Assembly (NCBI GenBank): GCA_964387845.1
Contig: CAYLXA010000011.1
Location: forward strand, 32,001-96,000
DNA length: 64,000 bases
Reading direction: 5' to 3'
From: an uncultured bacterium
GTDB lineage: Bacteria; Omnitrophota; Omnitrophia; Omnitrophales; Abzuiibacteriaceae
This document shows positions 14,788 through 61,650 of the stretch, piece by piece. The position numbers and the translations under genes were made by a program. Within the stretch, counting starts at the first letter, position 1, and each line of letters opens with the position of its first letter. The notes beneath the pieces are model-generated. The model did no database searches. It was not told where the DNA came from and was given only the letters and a program-made list of their open reading frames with translations.

Positions 14788-14861
14788 GGGCCCATAGCTC
14801 AGTCTGGTAGAGCACTGCCCTTTTAAGGCAGGTGTCGTTGGTTCAAATCCAACTGGGCTCA
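14788..14861 (+). tRNA. tRNA-Lys (anticodon TTT)
   Basis: Cloverleaf folded by hand. The acceptor GGGCCCA/TGGGCTC is followed by the discriminator A. The anticodon stem CTGCC/GGCAG carries the loop CTTTTAA. The T-loop is GGTTCAAATCC. Confidence 0.85.
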
Positions 14862-14961
14862 ATTTGATTTCGGATTGTGGAGTGCAGATTGAGAGAATAG
14901 ATTGATGATTGTTGATTCCGAAATCCGAAATTAACAATCCGAAATTGTATAATTTGTTAAT

Positions 14962-15035
14962 GTCCCCATCGTCTAGCCTGGTCAGGACAAGAGCTTTTCA
15001 AGCTCTCGGCAGGGGTTCAAATCCCCTTGGGGACA
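14962..15035 (+). tRNA. tRNA-Glu (anticodon TTC)
   Basis: The acceptor GTCCCCA/TGGGGAC is followed by A. The anticodon stem AGAGC/GCTCT carries the loop TTTTCAA. A GTCTAG D-arm typical of tRNA-Glu is present. Confidence 0.85.
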
Positions 15036-15051
15036 CTTTTCTCCGGTATTC

Positions 15052-16266: not shown

Positions 16267-16405
16267 GGCTTTATCTGACCCTTTAACCCAATATCTAGTA
16301 TTACCCAAAAAGTCTTTCTAAAGCCGTTAAGTTTCTCTAAGTTGTTGACGTACTTGTTGTTTAGGCGATATCGGTGATTCAAAAGTCGCATTTTGGAGGT
16401 GGCTC

Positions 16406-16549
16406 ATGATCACTAAAATGTTAAAAGTATTTGTTCTGACTGTTGCCATGACCTCAACTGTGGTAACCGCATCTTTCGCTTTTGACGGGAAAGATGCGCT
16501 TTCTGGTGTAGTTGTCAAATCAACACTTAAAGCAACGACTTGTCTTTGA
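16406..16549 (+). CDS. Unannotated small ORF (47 aa) with a signal-peptide-like N-terminus, a candidate secreted peptide
   Basis: A GGAGG RBS lies 6 nt upstream of the ATG. The peptide is MITKMLKVFVLTVAMTSTVVTASFA|FDGKDALSGVVVKSTLKATTCL. Not in the ORF track because it is under 60 aa. Confidence 0.3.
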   Translation: MITKMLKVFVLTVAMTSTVVTASFAFDGKDALSGVVVKSTLKATTCL

Positions 16550-17177
16550 CTATCTCTTGAAACCTTCCCGATCTTTTTTCTTCATAACAGCAGCAGGCTT
16601 TTTACTCTTTATTTTGATTTCACACCATCCAGCGGTTCATAGTTTGGATGTTTATTGGATGGGCATATTATACCGTAGCGATATTTCGTTCTTTAATATT
16701 GTGTTTATTCCGTTTATTTTGTGGGGATCGCCTCAAATTATAATCCCCGCGTTTCTTTTGTTATCATTCTGGTTTTATCAGCAAAAGAACTTTAAAGCGG
16801 CTTATTTATGTCTTGCGTCTCTTATAATCGCAACAGGCCTTGAGTTTGTGCTTAAGAATATTTTATGGGTTCCCAAGCCTTCCACAGAGTCATTCGGATC
16901 GCGGTTTCCATTTAAATGGACAGTTGCTTCTTACAAAACCCAGTCGTCATTGCCTAGCGGGCATGTTCTTAGAACGGTTCTTTTTATCTTATTCCTCGTT
17001 CATTGGATTCCTGCGATTCGTAACCGCAAGGCCCTGAAAGTATTTTTAATGTTCTTGCCCTTCATTACAGCTTTTGCTGCAGTCTATTACGGTGCGCACT
17101 GGACAAGAGATGCCGTCGCAGGAGCGTGGCTTGCGGTCTTGGCTTTTCTAGTCTGTGATAGATACGTTGCCTCTTGA
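16512..17177 (+). CDS. PAP2-superfamily (acid phosphatase / lipid phosphate phosphatase) membrane protein
   Basis: PAP2 motifs PSGH (SLPSGHV) and H-x3-D (AHWTRD) are present, with several TM helices. The start is uncertain (TTG at 16512 or an internal ATG at 16656). Confidence 0.65.
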   Translation: MSNQHLKQRLVFDYLLKPSRSFFFITAAGFLLFILISHHPAVHSLDVYWMGILYRSDISFFNIVFIPFILWGSPQIIIPAFLLLSFWFYQQKNFKAAYLCLASLIIATGLEFVLKNILWVPKPSTESFGSRFPFKWTVASYKTQSSLPSGHVLRTVLFILFLVHWIPAIRNRKALKVFLMFLPFITAFAAVYYGAHWTRDAVAGAWLAVLAFLVCDRYVAS

Positions 17178-17306
17178 ATGTTCGGCTGCCTTGACACTCT
17201 ACTTTCCTTATGATAATTTAAGCCCACTTTTTAAAAATCAAACTCATGTAGTTTGATTTTTAGCGTTAGTTTCCGGACGCTAAATTCCAAAAGGAGGGAC
17301 TTCAGC

Positions 17307-17825
17307 ATGGCAAAAAAGCTGGAAGAAAAGATTTTAGACGTTGATGCGAGTATGCAGGGAACGATCACATTTCGTGATCCTGTTAACCTGCGTATTAACG
17401 GAAGTTTTGAAGGCCGTTTGGATGTCCGAGGGAATTTGACCATTGGTGAAAATGCTAACGTGAAAGCCGATATCAGAGGCGATAAAATCTTAGTTGCAGG
17501 AAAAGTGACCGGTAATATCACGGCGTCTGCCAGTCTGGCGGTTATATCGCCTGCGGTGATTCGCGGCAACATTAAGTCCCCGATTTTCAGTGTTGCTGAA
17601 GGTTCCGTTATTGAAGGTCAAGTATCGATGACAAATTTACAAAATTTAGATGCCAATAGCACGCTGTCGTTGCGCGATTTAGCCCAGTACCTTGAAGTTG
17701 AGATGCGCGTCATTGAAGAGTGGGCGCGTGAGAAAAAAATTCCCGGCCGTCAAGAAAACGGCGAGTGGCGGTTTAATAAAGCCACGATTGATAAATGGGT
17801 GCAGGACGAAAAAGTAAAATTGTAA
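17307..17825 (+). CDS. Bactofilin (DUF583 polymer-forming beta-helical cytoskeletal domain) fused to a C-terminal excisionase-type helix-turn-helix (HTH_17) DNA-binding domain
   Basis: Residues ~20-120 show the bactofilin repeat pattern (…RINGSFEGRLDVRGNLTIGENANVKADIRGDKILVAGKVTGNITA…). The C-terminal 50 aa (LSLRDLAQYLEVEMRVIEEWAREKKIPGRQENGEWRFNKATIDKWV) is a typical excisionase/MerR-like HTH. AAGGAGGG RBS before the ATG at 17307. Confidence 0.65.
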   Translation: MAKKLEEKILDVDASMQGTITFRDPVNLRINGSFEGRLDVRGNLTIGENANVKADIRGDKILVAGKVTGNITASASLAVISPAVIRGNIKSPIFSVAEGSVIEGQVSMTNLQNLDANSTLSLRDLAQYLEVEMRVIEEWAREKKIPGRQENGEWRFNKATIDKWVQDEKVKL

Positions 17826-17876
17826 AGTTGATCCGATTCTTTCCGATTTTGTTCCACCAAAGATTTTGCATTTGAA

Positions 17877-18170
17877 ATGCTGCTAACCGAAGAAGAAGTC
17901 CAGAATTATTTAGGAGTTGACCGTTCTCATATTGAAAGGTTGATGAAACGCGGGAAACTCACGGCTTTTCGTGTCGGCGGCTCCTATCTCCGATTCCGCA
18001 AAGAGGAAGTCATTGCACTTAAAGCAGGTAAGCGCTTTGTGCCGGCCGAACAAATGGGCCGCAGGAGTTGGCTGGATCGTGCGCGTGATTTTTGGAAGTT
18101 TTACAGTTTTTATGTCCTCTCGTCGATTTTGATTGCACTCGCGGTTCTCCTGATTATCCAATACATCTAA
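17877..18170 (+). CDS. Excisionase-type HTH (HTH_17) DNA-binding protein with a C-terminal transmembrane anchor
   Basis: The N-terminal segment LTEEEVQNYLGVDRSHIERLMKRGKLTAFRVGGSYLRFRKEEV is the HTH_17 signature. The C-terminal segment FYVLSSILIALAVLLIIQYI is a hydrophobic helix. Confidence 0.6.
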   Translation: MLLTEEEVQNYLGVDRSHIERLMKRGKLTAFRVGGSYLRFRKEEVIALKAGKRFVPAEQMGRRSWLDRARDFWKFYSFYVLSSILIALAVLLIIQYI

Positions 18171-18175
18171 TATTC

Positions 18176-18556
18176 ATGACCGTTCCGTTCCAAATTGGCG
18201 TTGATATCGTGAGCGTGCGCCGGATGGAAGAATCCATCAAGCGTCACGGAAAATCCTTTCTCGATAAAGTATTCACGGCCGGCGAGCAATCTTATTGCGA
18301 AAAAAAGCGCAATAAGTATGAAAATTACGCTGCACGGTTTGCTGCCAAAGAAGCAGTGATTAAAGCCAAGGGCGGCGGTGCGGGCCGGATGCGTTTTAAA
18401 GATATCGAAGTCAAACGAGGCAAGAACGGCAAGCCATTTATTTCGATTACTCCTCAAGTCCGGCGTGAAATGTTCATCAAACCAAAAGCCGAATTTGAGC
18501 TGACTATGGCGCACGAACGGGAATTTGCGATCGCAACCGTCCTGATGTCAGCCTAG
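18176..18556 (+). CDS. acpS: Holo-[acyl-carrier-protein] synthase (4'-phosphopantetheinyl transferase)
   Basis: GVDIVSV(R)R…F(A)AKEA(V)IKA motifs typical of AcpS. About 126 aa from the ATG at 18176. Confidence 0.85.
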   Translation: MTVPFQIGVDIVSVRRMEESIKRHGKSFLDKVFTAGEQSYCEKKRNKYENYAARFAAKEAVIKAKGGGAGRMRFKDIEVKRGKNGKPFISITPQVRREMFIKPKAEFELTMAHEREFAIATVLMSA

Positions 18557-18560
18557 CGCT

Positions 18561-19268
18561 ATGCGTTATCTGATCGTTAACGCCGACGATTTTAATCTCA
18601 CCCAAGGTATTTCCCGCGCGGTTTTTTGCGCGCATGACCGCGGCATTGTGAATTCCACAAGCGTGATGATTAATTTTCCGCTGTCCTCATATCAAATATC
18701 GGGCCTCAGTAAACGCCCGGGCCTTAGCGTTGGGCTTCATTTGAATGTCACATCGGGTTCTCCGAAATTCAAAAAGGCAAGCGCATACCTATCCGGCAAA
18801 TTTGACCCGCATGTTTTATTCGCTGAATATGAATCACAGATCAAAAAGTTTCAAACAGTGTTTAAAAGGAAGCCGGATCATTTAGATACGCATCATCACA
18901 TTCATGCATCGCCAAAAGTTGCGTTGGTCTTATCCAAAATTTCGAGAAAATATAAAATCCCGGCCCGTCGGTCGGCTACGCTTCGAAGCGCAGCGACAAC
19001 CGATTATTTTTTTGGGAATTTATCGCCGCAAAAATATTGGACTCACACAAGTTTGCTGACGATTCTTGAAAACTTACCGCAGGGGACGAGCGAAATTATG
19101 TGTCATCCCGGTTTTGTTGATTCCGACCTGCGTTCCAAAAGTTCGTTCTTAAAGGGGCGCGAATGCGAGCGCAAGCTTTTTTCGAAACGATCATGGCGCT
19201 TGTTTTTGCGCCGCCACGGCATTCAACAGGTAAAATTTTCAAGCCTGCTTCCGGGCTCTGTGTTATAA
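18561..19268 (+). CDS. ChbG/HpnK/YdjC-family carbohydrate deacetylase
   Basis: N-terminal LIVNADDFNLTQG (YdjC signature NADDFG). 235 aa. Confidence 0.7.
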   Translation: MRYLIVNADDFNLTQGISRAVFCAHDRGIVNSTSVMINFPLSSYQISGLSKRPGLSVGLHLNVTSGSPKFKKASAYLSGKFDPHVLFAEYESQIKKFQTVFKRKPDHLDTHHHIHASPKVALVLSKISRKYKIPARRSATLRSAATTDYFFGNLSPQKYWTHTSLLTILENLPQGTSEIMCHPGFVDSDLRSKSSFLKGRECERKLFSKRSWRLFLRRHGIQQVKFSSLLPGSVL

Positions 19269-19278
19269 TACGCGGCTT

Positions 19279-20049
19279 ATGAGAGTCCTGATTACCAATG
19301 ACGATGGTATTCACTCGCCGGGGTTAAGGGCGATTGTGGATGCGATCCACAAAGAAGCCGAATGCCTGGTAGTAGCACCGCACAAGGAAAGGTCGGCGAC
19401 GGCGCATTCTATTTCTCTTTATGATGAAATTTGGGTCGAATCGGTTCACATCGGGGACGGGCTAAAAGGATATTCGGTCGAAGGAACGCCGGCTGATTGT
19501 GTGAAATTTGCGTTTGCGGAGCTTTTGAAGAAGAAAGTCGACCTCATTATATCGGGCATTAACCTGGGGTTAAATACGGGTATCAGCGTTTATTATTCAG
19601 GGACTGTGTCGGCGGCGCGTGAAGGATTGATCAACGGCGTTCCGTCGATCGCCATTTCGCAAGGCAAGCAGCAAACGCGCGATTTCGCATATGCCGGGAA
19701 GCTCGTATCAAAGTTGGTGCATGGCTATAAAAATTTACATTTTCCGAAAGATACATTTTTAAATATCAATGTACCTCCCGTCGAATCTCAGCAGGTGAAA
19801 GGGATTCGAGTGACGAAACAGGCGCATTCACGGTTTGACGAATGGTTTGAGGAAATTAAAAAATCCGGATCTAACGGCCGGAAACCGTATCAAGTCCGCG
19901 GCGATATCGAAATTTTAAGTCCGGACGGCACGAGCGATGAAGAAGCGATTCGAGAAGGTTATGTGTCGATGACGCCACTTCTTTTGGATTCAACGCATTA
20001 CAAGCAGATGTCCCATTTTGAGAAATGGGTGAGGGATAACGGAATTTAG
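19279..20049 (+). CDS. surE: 5'/3'-nucleotidase SurE
   Basis: MRVLITNDDGIHSPGL N-terminus. 256 aa. Confidence 0.9.
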   Translation: MRVLITNDDGIHSPGLRAIVDAIHKEAECLVVAPHKERSATAHSISLYDEIWVESVHIGDGLKGYSVEGTPADCVKFAFAELLKKKVDLIISGINLGLNTGISVYYSGTVSAAREGLINGVPSIAISQGKQQTRDFAYAGKLVSKLVHGYKNLHFPKDTFLNINVPPVESQQVKGIRVTKQAHSRFDEWFEEIKKSGSNGRKPYQVRGDIEILSPDGTSDEEAIREGYVSMTPLLLDSTHYKQMSHFEKWVRDNGI

Positions 20050-20066: not shown

Positions 20067-20258
20067 TTATTTCGGAACGGCGCCGTCAAGTGTCTCGAAC
20101 ACAATGGTGACGAGGCTGTGGCAGCGCGGGCACTTGATTTGCTTGAAAGCTTGGATGTTGTCGTGTTTGGGCCGGTACATAATGCTCAAGATCTTGGTTG
20201 AGAACTTGGCTTCTTCGCCGGACCACTGACAGGATGTACAAGCGTATGTCTGTTTCAT
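20067..20258 (-). CDS. Small zinc-ribbon protein (two CxxC pairs), hypothetical
   Basis: 63 aa with CTSC…CPRC. It converges on the surE end. Confidence 0.4.
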   Translation of the reverse strand: MKQTYACTSCQWSGEEAKFSTKILSIMYRPKHDNIQAFKQIKCPRCHSLVTIVFETLDGAVPK

Positions 20259-20469
20259 CGTGTAGAGTTGTATCGGCAGCGGGTTAGCGAACTTAAGAAA
20301 TTTGCAGGAAATTTTTAAGATTTTTTATCAGTAATACTAGATTTAGTGGTATCTAAGGTAAAATACCACAGGATTATGGGTAGCCCCGCGTCGCTGACTT
20401 TGTCAGCTCCTGGGGCGAACATCTTCCTTTATGAATAAGCACCTGAGACTTTTAAGGCAGAAGATATTC

Positions 20470-20542
<73 letters not shown>

Positions 20543-20594
20543 AATTTAGTTTTTGATATGTTGTTGTTTGTTATCACGTTGTACTAATCCTTGT

Positions 20595-20680
20595 GCCGAA
20601 GTGGCGGAACTGGCAGACGCGCTGGACTCAAAATCCAGTGGTGCTCAAACACCGTGTGGGTTCGATTCCCTCCTTCGGCA
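20595..20680 (+). tRNA. tRNA-Leu (anticodon CAA), class II with long variable arm
   Basis: The acceptor GCCGAAG/CTTCGGC is followed by the discriminator A. The anticodon stem CTGGA/TCCAG carries the loop CTCAAAA. A long variable arm is present. 86 nt. Confidence 0.85.
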
Positions 20681-20797
20681 CTGATTTTCATTAAAAATTA
20701 AATAACACTATTTGGGAATCAGCGCTGCCCCTGAATCTCGATAAAACACGTTTTTTCGTTTCTTGATATTCAGGGGCGGCACTGACTTTCATTAAAG
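20676..20797. repeat. 20-nt direct repeats CGGCACTGAYTTTCATTAAA (20676-20695, overlapping the tRNA-Leu 3' end, and 20778-20797) flanking an 82-nt palindromic insert
   Basis: Repeats with 1 mismatch. The insert carries a 10-bp inverted repeat GCCCCTGAAT/ATTCAGGGGC. Confidence 0.55.
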
Positions 20798-61482: not shown

Positions 61483-61650
61483 TTCAGTTAGTTCTTGAAA
61501 AGGACTAATTTCCTAACTTCTTAAAGACTTTTCTAACAAAAAATCTCGTCACGACAGATGTAAATCTGGTGATACTAGATTTTTCATGTTTTTTAAATGC
61601 CGGACATTGACACAGTCAATTTGGTTGTGTAACTTTTACGCAAACCAGTC

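What the first reader, a model, noticed from the sequence alone, without database searches (positions are those of the whole stretch)
17307..18170. Bactofilin fused to an excisionase-type HTH, followed by a membrane-anchored HTH paralog: candidate DNA-tethering cytoskeletal module
**Seen in the sequence**
- The first gene encodes an N-terminal bactofilin (DUF583) beta-helical polymerisation domain joined directly to a C-terminal HTH_17 DNA-binding domain.
- The adjacent gene encodes a second HTH_17 domain ending in a single C-terminal transmembrane helix.
- Both sit upstream of acpS.
- The first gene is preceded by a 5' UTR with two hairpins: a 10-bp stem spanning an upstream out-of-frame ATG at 17253, and a 6-bp stem TAGCGT…ACGCTA.

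**Established knowledge**
- Bactofilins polymerise into membrane-associated scaffolds.
- In Myxococcus they position ParAB through an adaptor (PadC) rather than binding DNA themselves.

**Inference**
- A bactofilin with an intrinsic DNA-binding domain, partnered with a membrane-anchored HTH, would form a direct polymer-DNA-membrane tether.
- Such a tether could serve chromosome or plasmid anchoring, or localised transcription control.
- I am not aware of this fusion being characterised.
Basis: partly seen in the sequence, partly recalled or inferred. Interest (0 to 1): 0.6.

Follow-up and report, generated by a model that had tools for sequence, protein, structure and literature searches.

The report
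Bactofilin-HTH protein with membrane-anchored partner
Bacteria of the uncultured phylum Omnitrophota carry a conserved gene pair: a filament-forming bactofilin with a helix-turn-helix domain at its end, and a small membrane-anchored helix-turn-helix protein. Together they probably form a membrane-attached scaffold that nobody has studied, but the filament protein's helix-turn-helix domain does not look like a normal DNA binder.

Summary
Gene A (17307-17825) encodes a bactofilin beta-helix, a 12-residue linker and an HTH_17 winged helix. Gene B (17877-18170) encodes an HTH_17 winged helix, a basic linker and a C-terminal membrane helix. acpS follows 5 nt later.

The fusion is not a frameshift. 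More than 1,300 protein clusters and 424 GTDB species genomes encode it, and every named one is Omnitrophota. B directly follows A in 79 of 79 loci, and also in two relatives at 36-39% identity that have lost the acpS linkage.

The DNA-tether reading is only partly supported:
- A lacks the canonical N-terminal membrane-targeting peptide. A paralog clade without B carries one (M-x-F-F-K-R-K-K).
- A's winged helix is acidic. Its mean net charge is -0.9, and -2.1 over 185 fused domains. Glu/Asp occupies the position of BldC Arg30, which is essential for DNA binding.
- B is basic and BldC-like.

My best reading is that B is the dedicated membrane receptor of A filaments, and that the winged helices act mainly as docking modules. 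DNA binding through B is not excluded.

I found no publication on this module. I rate it a new variant of a known kind, of moderate to high interest.

The parts
17191..17219 (+). Sigma-70-type promoter of the operon: -35 TTGACA (17191-17196), 17-nt spacer, TG at 17211-17212, -10 TAATTT (17214-17219)
   Evidence: Read directly from the sequence. A strict -35/-10 pattern is found in 29 of 75 upstream regions of orthologs, against 0.8 expected in shuffles, and the window's hit lies at -116 from the ATG. The generic scan missed it because the -10 hexamer is weak.
17232..17283 (+). 5' UTR with two hairpins: a 13-nt perfect inverted repeat (17232-17244 / 17250-17262, loop CATGT) and an 8-pair stem (17260-17267 / 17276-17283). 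Their function is unknown.
   Evidence: MFE -23.3 kcal/mol, z-score -2.4. The sequences are not conserved in relatives. No Rfam family matches.
17291..17299 (+). Strong Shine-Dalgarno sequence (AAGGAGGGA) for gene A
   Evidence: Read from the sequence. An AAGGAG/GGAGG motif sits at the same position in nearly all orthologous loci.
17307..17825 (+). Gene A: bactofilin-HTH_17 fusion protein, 172 aa
   Evidence: Pfam domains. 1,336 homologs, with both domains in each of the best 120. 424 GTDB species genomes. AF2 model with pLDDT 84.8.
17331..17624 (+). Bactofilin beta-helix domain (aa 9-106). The N-terminal tail MAKKLEEK lacks the canonical MFSKKKK-type membrane-targeting peptide. I102 sits at the C-terminal polymerisation-interface position.
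   Evidence: Foldseek matches 6ria, 2n3d and 6rib with TM-score 0.73-0.81. The profile alignment to the PDB places I102 in the column of TtBac F105 / CcBacA F130. N-terminal tails compared. Membrane-targeting consensus taken from PMC12448750.
17661..17810 (+). C-terminal winged helix-turn-helix of A (aa 119-168; order alpha1-alpha2-beta-beta-alpha3). It is acidic to neutral, with conserved E130, E132, E137 and E/D138.
   Evidence: Foldseek matches BldC 6ama/6amk (TM-score 0.76-0.81, rmsd 1.4-1.6 A), RdfS, RacA and pSK1 Par. Charge and conservation. Alignment to B and BldC.
17877..18170 (+). Gene B: tail-anchored HTH_17 protein, 97 aa
   Evidence: It follows A on the same strand in 79 of 79 loci, and also in L087 and L089.
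17880..18023 (+). N-terminal BldC-like winged helix-turn-helix of B (aa 2-49)
   Evidence: HTH_17 at E 8.8e-11. TIGR01764 'excise' scores 38.8 bits, above its 28.8 cut-off. BldC 6amk matches at E 3e-5 with the alignment shown. AF2 secondary structure.
18024..18167 (+). Basic disordered linker (aa 50-64), then a conserved juxtamembrane motif D-F-W-[RK]-F-[NY]-[NS]-F-Y (aa 71-79), then the C-terminal transmembrane helix running to the last residue
   Evidence: 80-sequence alignment: D71, F72, F75 and Y79 are (near-)invariant, and the linker has a mean net charge of +3.2. The AF2 model shows a helix over aa 65-96.
18176..20049 (+). Co-transcribed housekeeping genes: acpS (18176-18556), ydjC-family (18561-19268), surE-like (19279-20049). 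They are linked to A-B only within the core clade.
   Evidence: Pfam and NCBIfam matches. Gaps of 4-10 nt between genes. AcpS is found in 77 of 79 loci, YdjC in about 65 and SurE in about 35. These genes are absent downstream of A-B in L087 and L089.

Best explanation
A and B form a two-protein, membrane-attached cytoskeletal module that is specific to Omnitrophota.

A polymerises through its bactofilin beta-helix, which displays one winged helix per subunit on a flexible 12-residue linker. This step is inferred from homology.

A has lost the N-terminal membrane-targeting peptide that canonical bactofilins use. B supplies the membrane link in trans. B is inserted by its C-terminal helix, with its basic linker and winged helix in the cytoplasm. 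This step is inferred from the conserved gene pairing and from the complementary presence or absence of a membrane-targeting peptide.

The winged helix of A is not a canonical DNA reader. It most likely serves as a protein-docking module. Its partner could be B's basic winged helix and linker, arranged head-to-tail as BldC and RdfS domains are, or it could be another client. This step is the least certain.

B's own winged helix keeps part of the BldC DNA-contact set. A secondary DNA contact through B is therefore possible.

The client that the scaffold positions is unknown.
For: Shown here:
1. Both domains of A and the architecture of B are confirmed.
2. The bactofilin fold and the hydrophobic residue at the polymerisation interface are retained.
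3. The family is large and restricted to Omnitrophota. There are 1,336 clusters and 424 species genomes, and 'PVC group' is the only other label seen.
4. B directly follows A in 79 of 79 loci. In L087 (39% identity) and L089 (36% identity) the other neighbours have changed, yet B still follows A and keeps its wHTH and C-terminal TM helix.
5. A's N-terminal tails read MAKK..EEK, with no Phe at positions 2-3. The B-less paralog clade starts M-x-F-F-K-R-K-K in 8 of 9 sequences, which resembles the bactofilin membrane-targeting consensus MFSKKKK (PMC12448750).
6. A's wHTH is acidic, with E/D at the position of BldC Arg30. B's cytoplasmic part is basic, at a mean of +3.8.

Precedents from the literature:
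- An overproduced PbpC membrane anchor replaces the BacA membrane-targeting peptide in trans (PMC12448750).
- B. subtilis bactofilins BacE and BacF bind the HTH protein BacR near its HTH and hold it at the membrane (PMC13649987).
- The HTH domain of RodZ binds MreB (established knowledge, van den Ent 2010).
Against: No direct evidence of an A-B contact was obtained. The tools allowed no complex prediction. Charge compensation between A's wHTH and B was absent (r about 0.1), and mutual-information covariation on 77 pairs could not be interpreted.

The B-less paralog clade keeps an even more acidic wHTH (-4 to -7). The wHTH therefore cannot exist only to bind B.

A bactofilin-PilZ relative (P0177) shares A's N-terminal motif and has no B next to it.

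Some distant fusion members carry basic residues in the recognition helix, for example P0161 (VRKW, net +4). DNA binding may therefore be ancestral, or kept in part of the family.

An acidic net charge argues against DNA binding but does not disprove it.
Confidence: 0.42

Rival explanations
1. This is the first reader's model: a polymer-DNA-membrane tether. B's winged helix, A's winged helix or both bind DNA. The bactofilin filament aligns many weak DNA-binding domains, much as BldC multimerises on direct repeats, and B's membrane helix fixes the complex to the membrane. The result would anchor or organise the chromosome.
For: - Both domains belong to the MerR-like/excisionase wHTH class, whose solved members bind DNA. 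These include BldC, RdfS, RacA (which anchors the chromosome to the pole) and the pSK1 Par centromere binder.
- B matches BldC by sequence at E 3e-5.
- B keeps K/R at the Arg30 position in 50 of 80 sequences, an invariant Arg at the Arg48 position, and a basic wing and linker.
- BldC needs cooperative multimers to bind DNA (PMC5859096), and a polymer could provide that.
- A paralog sits next to a ParA/MipZ-like ATPase.
- The module is extremely conserved and sits in a housekeeping operon.
Against: - A's wHTH has a net charge of about -1, and the mean over 185 fused domains is -2.1. Acidic residues occupy the positions of BldC Thr29 and Arg30.
- B has a conserved Glu at the Thr29 position and lacks the residues equivalent to Lys26, Thr27 and Arg47.
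- B scores 30 bits against the BldC family model, whose cut-off is 77.
- No conserved operator or repeat was found near the operon.
- The TAATACTAGAT motif has only two exact copies.
Confidence: 0.25
2. This is a regulatory switch of the BacR-BacEF type. B is a membrane-tethered DNA-binding regulator. A filaments bind it through A's acidic wHTH, which acts as a competitor for DNA. The filaments thereby control whether B can contact DNA, coupling the assembly state of the scaffold to gene expression or nucleoid contact.
For: - In B. subtilis, bactofilin binding and DNA binding by the HTH protein BacR exclude each other, and the genes share an operon (PMC13649987).
- A's wHTH is acidic and B's cytoplasmic part is basic.
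- Relatives of the fusion often sit beside two-component or sigma-54 regulators (L081, L084, L087, L091).
- A perfect 13+5+13 palindrome lies just downstream of the promoter.
Against: - B is permanently membrane-inserted and has no sensor domain or release mechanism.
- The palindrome is not conserved in orthologous loci.
- There is no charge co-variation between A and B.
- The regulated target would have to be housekeeping genes.
Confidence: 0.15
3. A and B work independently. Their adjacency reflects only shared transcription with housekeeping genes, and the HTH_17 domains are unrelated small regulators.
For: - No direct interaction evidence was obtained.
- The paralog clade and the PilZ variant exist without B.
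Against: - Adjacency holds in 79 of 79 loci, and it persists at 36-39% identity where all other neighbours have changed.
- The presence or absence of a membrane-targeting peptide is complementary to the presence of B.
Confidence: 0.06
4. The HTH_17 genes are excisionases (recombination directionality factors) of an integrated mobile element or a defence island.
For: Weak matches to excisionase PHROGs and to the MADS MAD1 HTH.
Against: - The matches cover only the generic HTH_17 fold. MAD1 scores 42 bits against a cut-off of 80.
- No integrase is present. The neighbours are rpsB, tsf, pyrH, frr, tRNAs, acpS, surE and leuS.
- The locus is syntenic across a whole phylum.
Confidence: 0.01

Closest known systems
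Canonical bactofilins (C. crescentus BacA, T. thermophilus Bac; PDB 2n3d, 6ria/6rib)
   Same: - The Pfam domain is the same.
- The beta-helix fold is the same (TM-score 0.73-0.81).
- A hydrophobic residue sits at the C-terminal polymerisation interface.
   Different: - A has no N-terminal MFSKKKK-type membrane-targeting peptide.
- Its C-terminal tail is a folded wHTH domain rather than a short disordered tail.
- It has a dedicated tail-anchored partner gene.
B. subtilis BacE/BacF with the HTH regulator BacR (YhbD, DUF4004)
   Same: - A bactofilin and a small HTH protein are encoded in one operon.
- The HTH region contacts the bactofilin, and the HTH protein is held at the membrane (PMC13649987).
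   Different: - The HTH family differs: DUF4004 there, HTH_17 here.
- BacR is soluble and is not fused. Here one HTH is fused to the bactofilin and the other is membrane-inserted.
- BacE and BacF bind the membrane themselves.
C. crescentus BacA-PbpC and H. pylori CcmA-Csd5/7 (a membrane protein that links a bactofilin to the membrane)
   Same: A bitopic membrane protein binds the bactofilin through its cytoplasmic part and can supply membrane attachment in trans (PMC12448750).
   Different: - Those partners are cell-wall enzymes or shape proteins with periplasmic domains, and they bind through short peptides.
- B has essentially no extracytoplasmic part, and its cytoplasmic part is a wHTH.
M. 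xanthus BacNOP-PadC-ParAB
   Same: A bactofilin scaffold is connected to the chromosome-segregation machinery. A paralog of the fusion sits beside a ParA/MipZ-like ATPase.
   Different: - That connection runs through the adaptor PadC (ParB-like CTPase fold), not through a fused HTH.
- The window's operon has no ParB-like or ParA gene.
BldC (Streptomyces), RdfS, Xis: minimal HTH_17 / MerR-like winged helices that oligomerise head-to-tail
   Same: - The fold is the same (rmsd 1.4-1.6 A for A).
- B matches BldC by sequence at E 3e-5.
   Different: - BldC is a soluble, basic (+6), single-domain protein.
- A's domain is acidic and has E/D at the Arg30 position.
- B is membrane-anchored and scores below the BldC family cut-off (30 bits against 77).
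RodZ-MreB and RacA-DivIVA
   Same: - RodZ is a membrane protein whose cytoplasmic HTH binds a cytoskeletal polymer instead of DNA.
- RacA is a MerR-like wHTH that ties DNA to a membrane-associated scaffold. RacA appears among the fold matches.
   Different: - RodZ has an Xre-type HTH, is N-terminally anchored and carries a periplasmic domain.
- RacA is soluble and uses a coiled coil.
- Neither is homologous to B beyond the general HTH class, and no Pfam match to RodZ domains was found.

Membership tests
Bactofilin (PF04519 / DUF583) | Sequence match to the family model above the curated cut-off | tested here: met
   77.1 bits against a cut-off of 27.9, over aa 9-106.
Bactofilin (PF04519 / DUF583) | Right-handed beta-helix fold | tested here: met
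   The AF2 model has pLDDT of at least 90 over the core. Foldseek matches 2n3d, 6ria and 6rib with TM-score 0.73-0.81.
Bactofilin (PF04519 / DUF583) | Conserved hydrophobic residue at the C-terminal polymerisation interface (CcBacA F130, TtBac F105) | tested here: met
   The aligned column holds I102. It is Ile or Leu in the core clade and Phe in distant members. The substitution is conservative, but the residue is not Phe.
Bactofilin (PF04519 / DUF583) | N-terminal membrane-targeting peptide (consensus MFSKKKK) | tested here: not met
   The tails read MAKK..EEK, with no Phe at positions 2-3 in the 80 orthologs. The consensus comes from PMC12448750. This feature is typical of the family but not obligatory.
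Bactofilin (PF04519 / DUF583) | Nucleotide-independent polymerisation | not testable with these tools
   This needs purified protein examined by EM or sedimentation.
HTH_17 / excisionase-type MerR-like winged helix | Sequence match above the Pfam cut-off | tested here: met
   A scores 35.2 bits and B scores 42.3 bits, against a cut-off of 27. For TIGR01764 'excise', B scores 38.8 (cut-off 28.8, met) and A scores 25.6 (not met).
HTH_17 / excisionase-type MerR-like winged helix | Topology alpha1-alpha2-beta1-beta2-alpha3 | tested here: met
   Secondary structure of both AF2 models. A superposes on BldC and RdfS at 1.2-1.6 A.
HTH_17 / excisionase-type MerR-like winged helix | Basic DNA-contact residues on the recognition helix and wing (BldC K26, T27, T29, R30, K33, H46, R47, R48) | tested here: not met
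   For A: E137 sits at the T29 position, E/D138 at the R30 position (76 of 80 sequences), and a mostly hydrophobic residue at the R48 position. The net charge is -0.9. B is intermediate: K/R at the R30 position in 50 of 80, an invariant Arg at R48, but Glu at T29.
HTH_17 / excisionase-type MerR-like winged helix | DNA binding | not testable with these tools
   This needs EMSA or fluorescence polarisation with purified domains.
Excisionase / recombination directionality factor of a mobile element | Association with an integrase and element borders | tested here: not met
   The neighbours are housekeeping genes and the locus is syntenic across the phylum.
BldC family (NF033787) | Score above the family cut-off; a soluble single-domain protein | tested here: not met
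   B scores 30.3 bits against a cut-off of 77. B also carries a TM helix.
MADS defence system MAD1 (NF047737) | Score above the family cut-off, with neighbouring MADS genes | tested here: not met
   A scores 42 bits against a cut-off of 80. The only PADLOC hit is the HTH itself. No defence genes lie nearby.
Bactofilin-PadC-ParAB scaffold | A ParB-like adaptor and ParA encoded with the bactofilin or bound by it | tested here: not met
   The window's operon and flanks hold none. A ParA/MipZ-like gene lies near a 26%-identical paralog only.

The most novel reading that the evidence does not exclude
The pair is a new kind of nucleoid-membrane anchor. A bactofilin filament would template a linear, membrane-fixed array of BldC-like winged helices, made of B alone or of alternating A and B domains head-to-tail. 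The array would bind DNA cooperatively and tether or organise the small Omnitrophota chromosome at the membrane. That would be the first bactofilin system to contact DNA without a ParB-type adaptor.
Probability: 0.2. Interest if true: 0.8.

Novelty: new variant of a known kind. Interest (0 to 1): 0.58.

Why it matters
Bactofilins are a widespread bacterial cytoskeleton whose clients and mode of membrane attachment are known for only a handful of model species.

This module is nearly invariant across an entire uncultured phylum of ultra-small bacteria. Orthologs are 55-92% identical and occur in at least 424 species genomes.

It shows two features not described for bactofilins:
- a folded winged-helix domain fused to every subunit;
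- a dedicated tail-anchored partner that appears to replace the usual membrane-targeting peptide.

The module offers a natural test of the idea that bactofilins can be attached to the membrane in trans. It also offers a case where an 'excisionase-type DNA-binding domain' annotation is probably misleading.

If DNA binding were shown after all, the module would be an adaptor-free link between a cytoskeletal polymer, the membrane and the chromosome.

Tried and rejected
1. **Frameshift or chance fusion.** Rejected. The best 120 homologs are all 171-179 aa and carry both domains.

2. **Mobile-element excisionase or defence gene.** Rejected on context and on sub-threshold scores.

3. **Known RNA element in the 5' UTR.** No Rfam match. 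The hairpin sequences are not conserved, so I assign them no function.

4. **Palindrome 17232-17262 as an autoregulatory operator.** It has no counterpart in 75 orthologous upstream regions, so the idea is unsupported.

5. **TAATACTAGAT as a binding motif.** There are two exact copies, in opposite orientation, flanking the PAP2-to-surE block (sequences). That is too few to evaluate.

6. **Inter-protein co-evolution.** The correlation between the net charge of A's wHTH and that of B was about 0.1. APC-corrected mutual information on 77 pairs was dominated by clade-defining substitutions, with top inter-protein pairs such as A82-B27 and A53-B36. This is not interpretable.

7. **Structure-based phyletic survey against AFDB.** The library was unavailable.

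9. **acpS, ydjC and surE as part of the module.** Rejected. The linkage is lost in L087 and L089 while the A-B pairing persists.

10. **A's N-terminal motif (LDVDAxMQG...) as a strict marker of B partnership.** Weakened by the bactofilin-PilZ relative P0177, which has the motif but no adjacent B.
Full report
**What is there**

The finding's coordinates run from the start codon of gene A (17307) to the stop codon of gene B (18170).

Gene A encodes 172 aa. Pfam places Bactofilin PF04519 on aa 9-106 (E 1.3e-21, 77 bits, cut-off 27.9). It places HTH_17 PF12728 on aa 120-167 (E 1.5e-8, 35 bits, cut-off 27).

An AlphaFold2 model built on 21 homologs has a mean pLDDT of 84.8. It shows:
- a beta-helix over aa 9-106;
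- a low-confidence linker over aa 107-118;
- a winged helix-turn-helix over aa 119-168, with the order alpha1-alpha2-beta-beta-alpha3.

Foldseek against the PDB returns two groups of matches:
- For the first domain, the bactofilin structures 6ria, 2n3d and 6rib (TM-score 0.73-0.81).
- For the second domain, BldC-DNA complexes (6ama and 6amk; TM-score 0.76-0.81, rmsd 1.4-1.6 A), the excisionase RdfS, RacA and the pSK1 Par centromere-binding domain.

Gene B encodes 97 aa. HTH_17 covers aa 2-51 (E 8.8e-11). The 'excise' model TIGR01764 scores above its cut-off. By sequence, the closest solved structure is BldC (E 3e-5). The model of B has a winged helix over aa 2-49, a disordered stretch over aa 50-64, and one long helix over aa 65-96 that reaches the C-terminus.

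acpS starts at 18176, 5 nt after B's stop codon. A ydjC-family gene and a surE-like gene follow, separated by gaps of 4 and 10 nt. Upstream lie a PAP2 phosphatase and a GT87 glycosyltransferase. Farther out are rpsB, tsf, pyrH, frr, four tRNA genes and leuS. The locus is therefore a housekeeping region and not a mobile element.

**Transcription unit**

A sigma-70-type promoter lies 116 nt upstream of A. It has TTGACA at 17191-17196, a 17-nt spacer, TG at 17211-17212, and TAATTT at 17214-17219. A strict version of this pattern is found upstream of 29 of 75 orthologs, against 0.8 expected in shuffles.

- The first is a perfect 13-nt inverted repeat, 17232-17244 / 17250-17262.
- Its loop holds an out-of-frame ATG at 17246, not at 17253.
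- The second hairpin extends to 8 pairs.

These hairpins are not conserved in sequence among relatives and match no Rfam family. I assign them no function.

**The fusion is real and old**

A word-indexed search of 5.8 billion proteins found 1,336 relatives. The best 120 are all 171-179 aa and all carry both Pfam domains. Those with names come from Omnitrophica/Omnitrophota MAGs.

A scan of one genome per GTDB species found 424 genomes encoding a relative. Every titled locus among the best 80 is Omnitrophota.

An exhaustive HMMER search of 1.84 billion representatives found full-length fusions down to 26% identity. The labelled members of these deep clades are again Omnitrophota or 'PVC group bacterium', and Omnitrophota sits within the PVC group.

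Neither is met.

**A and B are a conserved pair**

I called ORFs in the 80 loci and searched them with the window's proteins. The results were:
- B's ortholog directly follows A on the same strand in all 79 loci that have downstream sequence.
- AcpS follows in 77 loci, YdjC in about 65 and SurE in about 35.
- PAP2 lies upstream only in the closest relatives.

Two much more distant fusions are still followed immediately by a 97-99 aa HTH_17 gene with a C-terminal membrane helix. These are P0308 (39% identity, 'PVC group bacterium') and P0166 (36% identity). Their other neighbours are different, and acpS is not there. The A-B pair is therefore the conserved core, and the acpS linkage is specific to one clade.

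The 80-sequence alignment of B shows a fixed architecture:
- a winged helix;
- a basic linker with mean net charge +3.2;
- a nearly invariant juxtamembrane motif, D-F-W-R-F-N-N-F-Y;
- a terminal membrane helix with at most a few residues beyond it.

B is thus a tail-anchored protein with no sensor domain.

**Membrane attachment**

Canonical bactofilins bind the membrane through an N-terminal peptide with the consensus MFSKKKK. The Phe and Lys residues of that peptide are essential (PMC12448750).

The tails of A and its 79 orthologs read MAKK..EEK and have no Phe at positions 2-3.

A paralogous clade of bactofilin-HTH_17 proteins (P0197 and P0325-P0332, 26% identity to A) has no B-like neighbour. 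Its members sit beside a ParA/MipZ-like ATPase or a two-component/sigma-54 system. Eight of its nine sequences start with M-x-F-F-K-R-K-K.

The pattern is complementary: an own membrane-targeting peptide where B is absent, and none where B is present. This is my main argument that B supplies the membrane anchor in trans.

There is experimental precedent. An overproduced PbpC membrane anchor fully replaces the BacA membrane-targeting peptide, and H. pylori CcmA is thought to reach the membrane through partner proteins (PMC12448750).

The hydrophobic residue of the C-terminal polymerisation interface (CcBacA F130, TtBac F105) aligns with I102. That position is Ile or Leu in the clade and Phe in distant members. 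Polymerisation is therefore plausible but untested.

**Is the fused domain a DNA binder?**

In BldC-DNA structures the contacts come from K26, T27, T29, R30, W31 and K33 on the HTH, and from H46, R47 and R48 on the wing. The R30A and H46E substitutions abolish binding, and RacA uses the equivalent arginine (PMC5859096).

A profile-profile alignment of A's domain with B's (97% probability), combined with the B-BldC alignment, gives the following picture.

For A:
- E137 (76 of 80 sequences) sits at the T29 position.
- E/D138 (76 of 80) sits at the R30 position.
- A mostly hydrophobic residue sits at the R48 position.
- E130 and E132 are also conserved.
- The domain's mean net charge is -0.9 (range -4 to +2).
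- The B-less paralogs lie at -4 to -7.

For B:
- K/R sits at the R30 position in 50 of 80 sequences.
- K/R sits at the K33 position in 48 of 80.
- An invariant Arg sits at the R48 position.
- The wing is basic (K32, R39, R41, K42).
- A conserved Glu sits at the T29 position.
- The domain's mean net charge is +0.7.
- The same stretch of BldC is +6.

I conclude that A's winged helix is unlikely to bind DNA in the canonical way. B might bind DNA, but it scores below the BldC family cut-off (30 bits against 77).

A few distant fusions carry basic recognition helices, such as P0161 (VRKW, +4). DNA binding may therefore be ancestral.

**Most likely mechanism**

A polymerises into filaments that carry one acidic winged helix per subunit. 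B, inserted in the membrane by its tail, binds the filament and attaches it to the membrane.

The winged helices act as docking modules. One possibility is a head-to-tail heterotypic contact like the BldC and RdfS oligomer interfaces. In that contact, A's alpha1-alpha2 face (L129, V131, W139 and the acidic ridge) would meet B's hydrophobic and basic wing.

Basis for each step:
- Shown here: the domains, the folds, the conservation, the pairing, the contrast in membrane-targeting peptides and the charge pattern.
- Inferred: polymerisation, the A-B contact and the site of that contact.

I put this reading at about 0.42.

The rivals are:
- A BacR-like switch at about 0.15. In this model A's acidic domain competes with DNA for B (PMC13649987).
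- Independent functions, at about 0.06.
- An excisionase role, which is excluded.

The persistence of an acidic winged helix in paralogs that lack B shows that this domain has a role beyond binding B. I cannot say what that role is.

**What did not work**

- Charge compensation and mutual-information covariation between A and B gave nothing interpretable with 77 pairs.
- The AFDB fold library was unavailable.
- Complex prediction was not possible with the tools.

**Comparison with known systems and novelty**

A is a member of the bactofilin family by sequence, by fold and by the interface residue. It lacks the typical membrane-targeting peptide.

Both winged helices are members of HTH_17. Neither qualifies as BldC, MAD1 or a mobile-element excisionase.

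Functionally, the closest known systems are:
- bactofilins attached through membrane partners (PbpC, Csd5/7);
- the BacEF-BacR pair;
- by analogy only, RodZ-MreB and RacA-DivIVA.

Full-text searches found no paper that combines bactofilin with HTH_17. No paper deals with bactofilins of Omnitrophota: the search with 'Omnitrophota' found none, and the search with 'Omnitrophica' returned only a ribosomal-protein phylogeny paper that uses the word bactofilin once. The papers that hold both 'bactofilin' and 'helix-turn-helix' concern other systems. Database names for these proteins are generic: 'polymer-forming cytoskeletal protein' and 'excisionase family DNA binding protein'.

Omnitrophota keep the dcw/FtsZ division genes (PMC12283558). 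The module is therefore not an obvious replacement for FtsZ.

I rate it a new variant of a known kind, with interest 0.58.

Noticed in passing
L084:866-4317 (also L085, L086); proteins P0197, P0325-P0332: A paralogous clade of bactofilin-HTH_17 proteins is 26% identical to A. Its members start with an MTS-like M-x-F-F-K-R-K-K peptide and carry a very acidic wHTH (-4 to -7). They lie three genes downstream of a 465-aa ParA/MipZ/CbiA-type ATPase that carries an AMPK1_CBM (glycogen-binding) domain, and three unannotated proteins are nearby. This may be a cargo-positioning system.
   Followed up: partly
L091:768-4554 (protein P0177); also L081-L083: A bactofilin of the same subfamily (53% identity over the beta-helix, same N-terminal motif) is fused to a PilZ domain instead of HTH_17. 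It is followed by a hybrid kinase, a sigma-54 response regulator and a single-domain response regulator. The same type of two-component/sigma-54 cluster follows the bactofilin-HTH_17 paralog P0329. Output domains appear to be swapped on one bactofilin chassis, which may link it to c-di-GMP or two-component signalling.
   Followed up: partly
window 16293-16303 (-) and 20332-20342 (+): The two exact TAATACTAGAT copies extend to GTAATACTAGAT[AT]T. They lie in opposite orientation in the intergenic regions that bracket the block from PAP2 to surE (16512-20049). A third copy with one mismatch is at 61570. The meaning is unknown. They may be promoter -10 regions, since the + copy lies about 130 nt upstream of tRNA-Ala.
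   Followed up: partly
window 17232-17262: A perfect 13+5+13 AT-rich palindrome (TAAAAATCAAACT CATGT AGTTTGATTTTTA) starts 13 nt downstream of the -10 hexamer. It could be an operator or a stabilising stem-loop at the 5' end of the mRNA. It is not conserved in orthologous loci.
   Followed up: partly
window 16406-16549 (+) and 20067-20258 (-): Two small unannotated ORFs flank the operon. One encodes a 47-aa protein with a signal-peptide-like N-terminus, preceded by GGAGGTGG. The other encodes a 63-aa protein with two CxxC pairs (zinc-ribbon-like) and is convergent with surE.
   Followed up: no
protein P0250 (231 aa): This protein consists of three tandem HTH_17 repeats (E 9.7e-36), each mildly basic (+1 to +2). 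It shows that HTH_17 domains are arrayed in series by other means in related metagenomic organisms.
   Followed up: no
protein P0255 (5,489 aa): This giant protein has 10 stretches that match the bactofilin-like beta-helix of A. It is reminiscent of the giant proteins reported from Omnitrophota, which I recall from memory and did not check.
   Followed up: no
window 14788-15036 and 20470-20681: Two tRNA pairs (Lys-Glu and Ala-Leu) bracket the GT87-to-surE segment.
   Followed up: no
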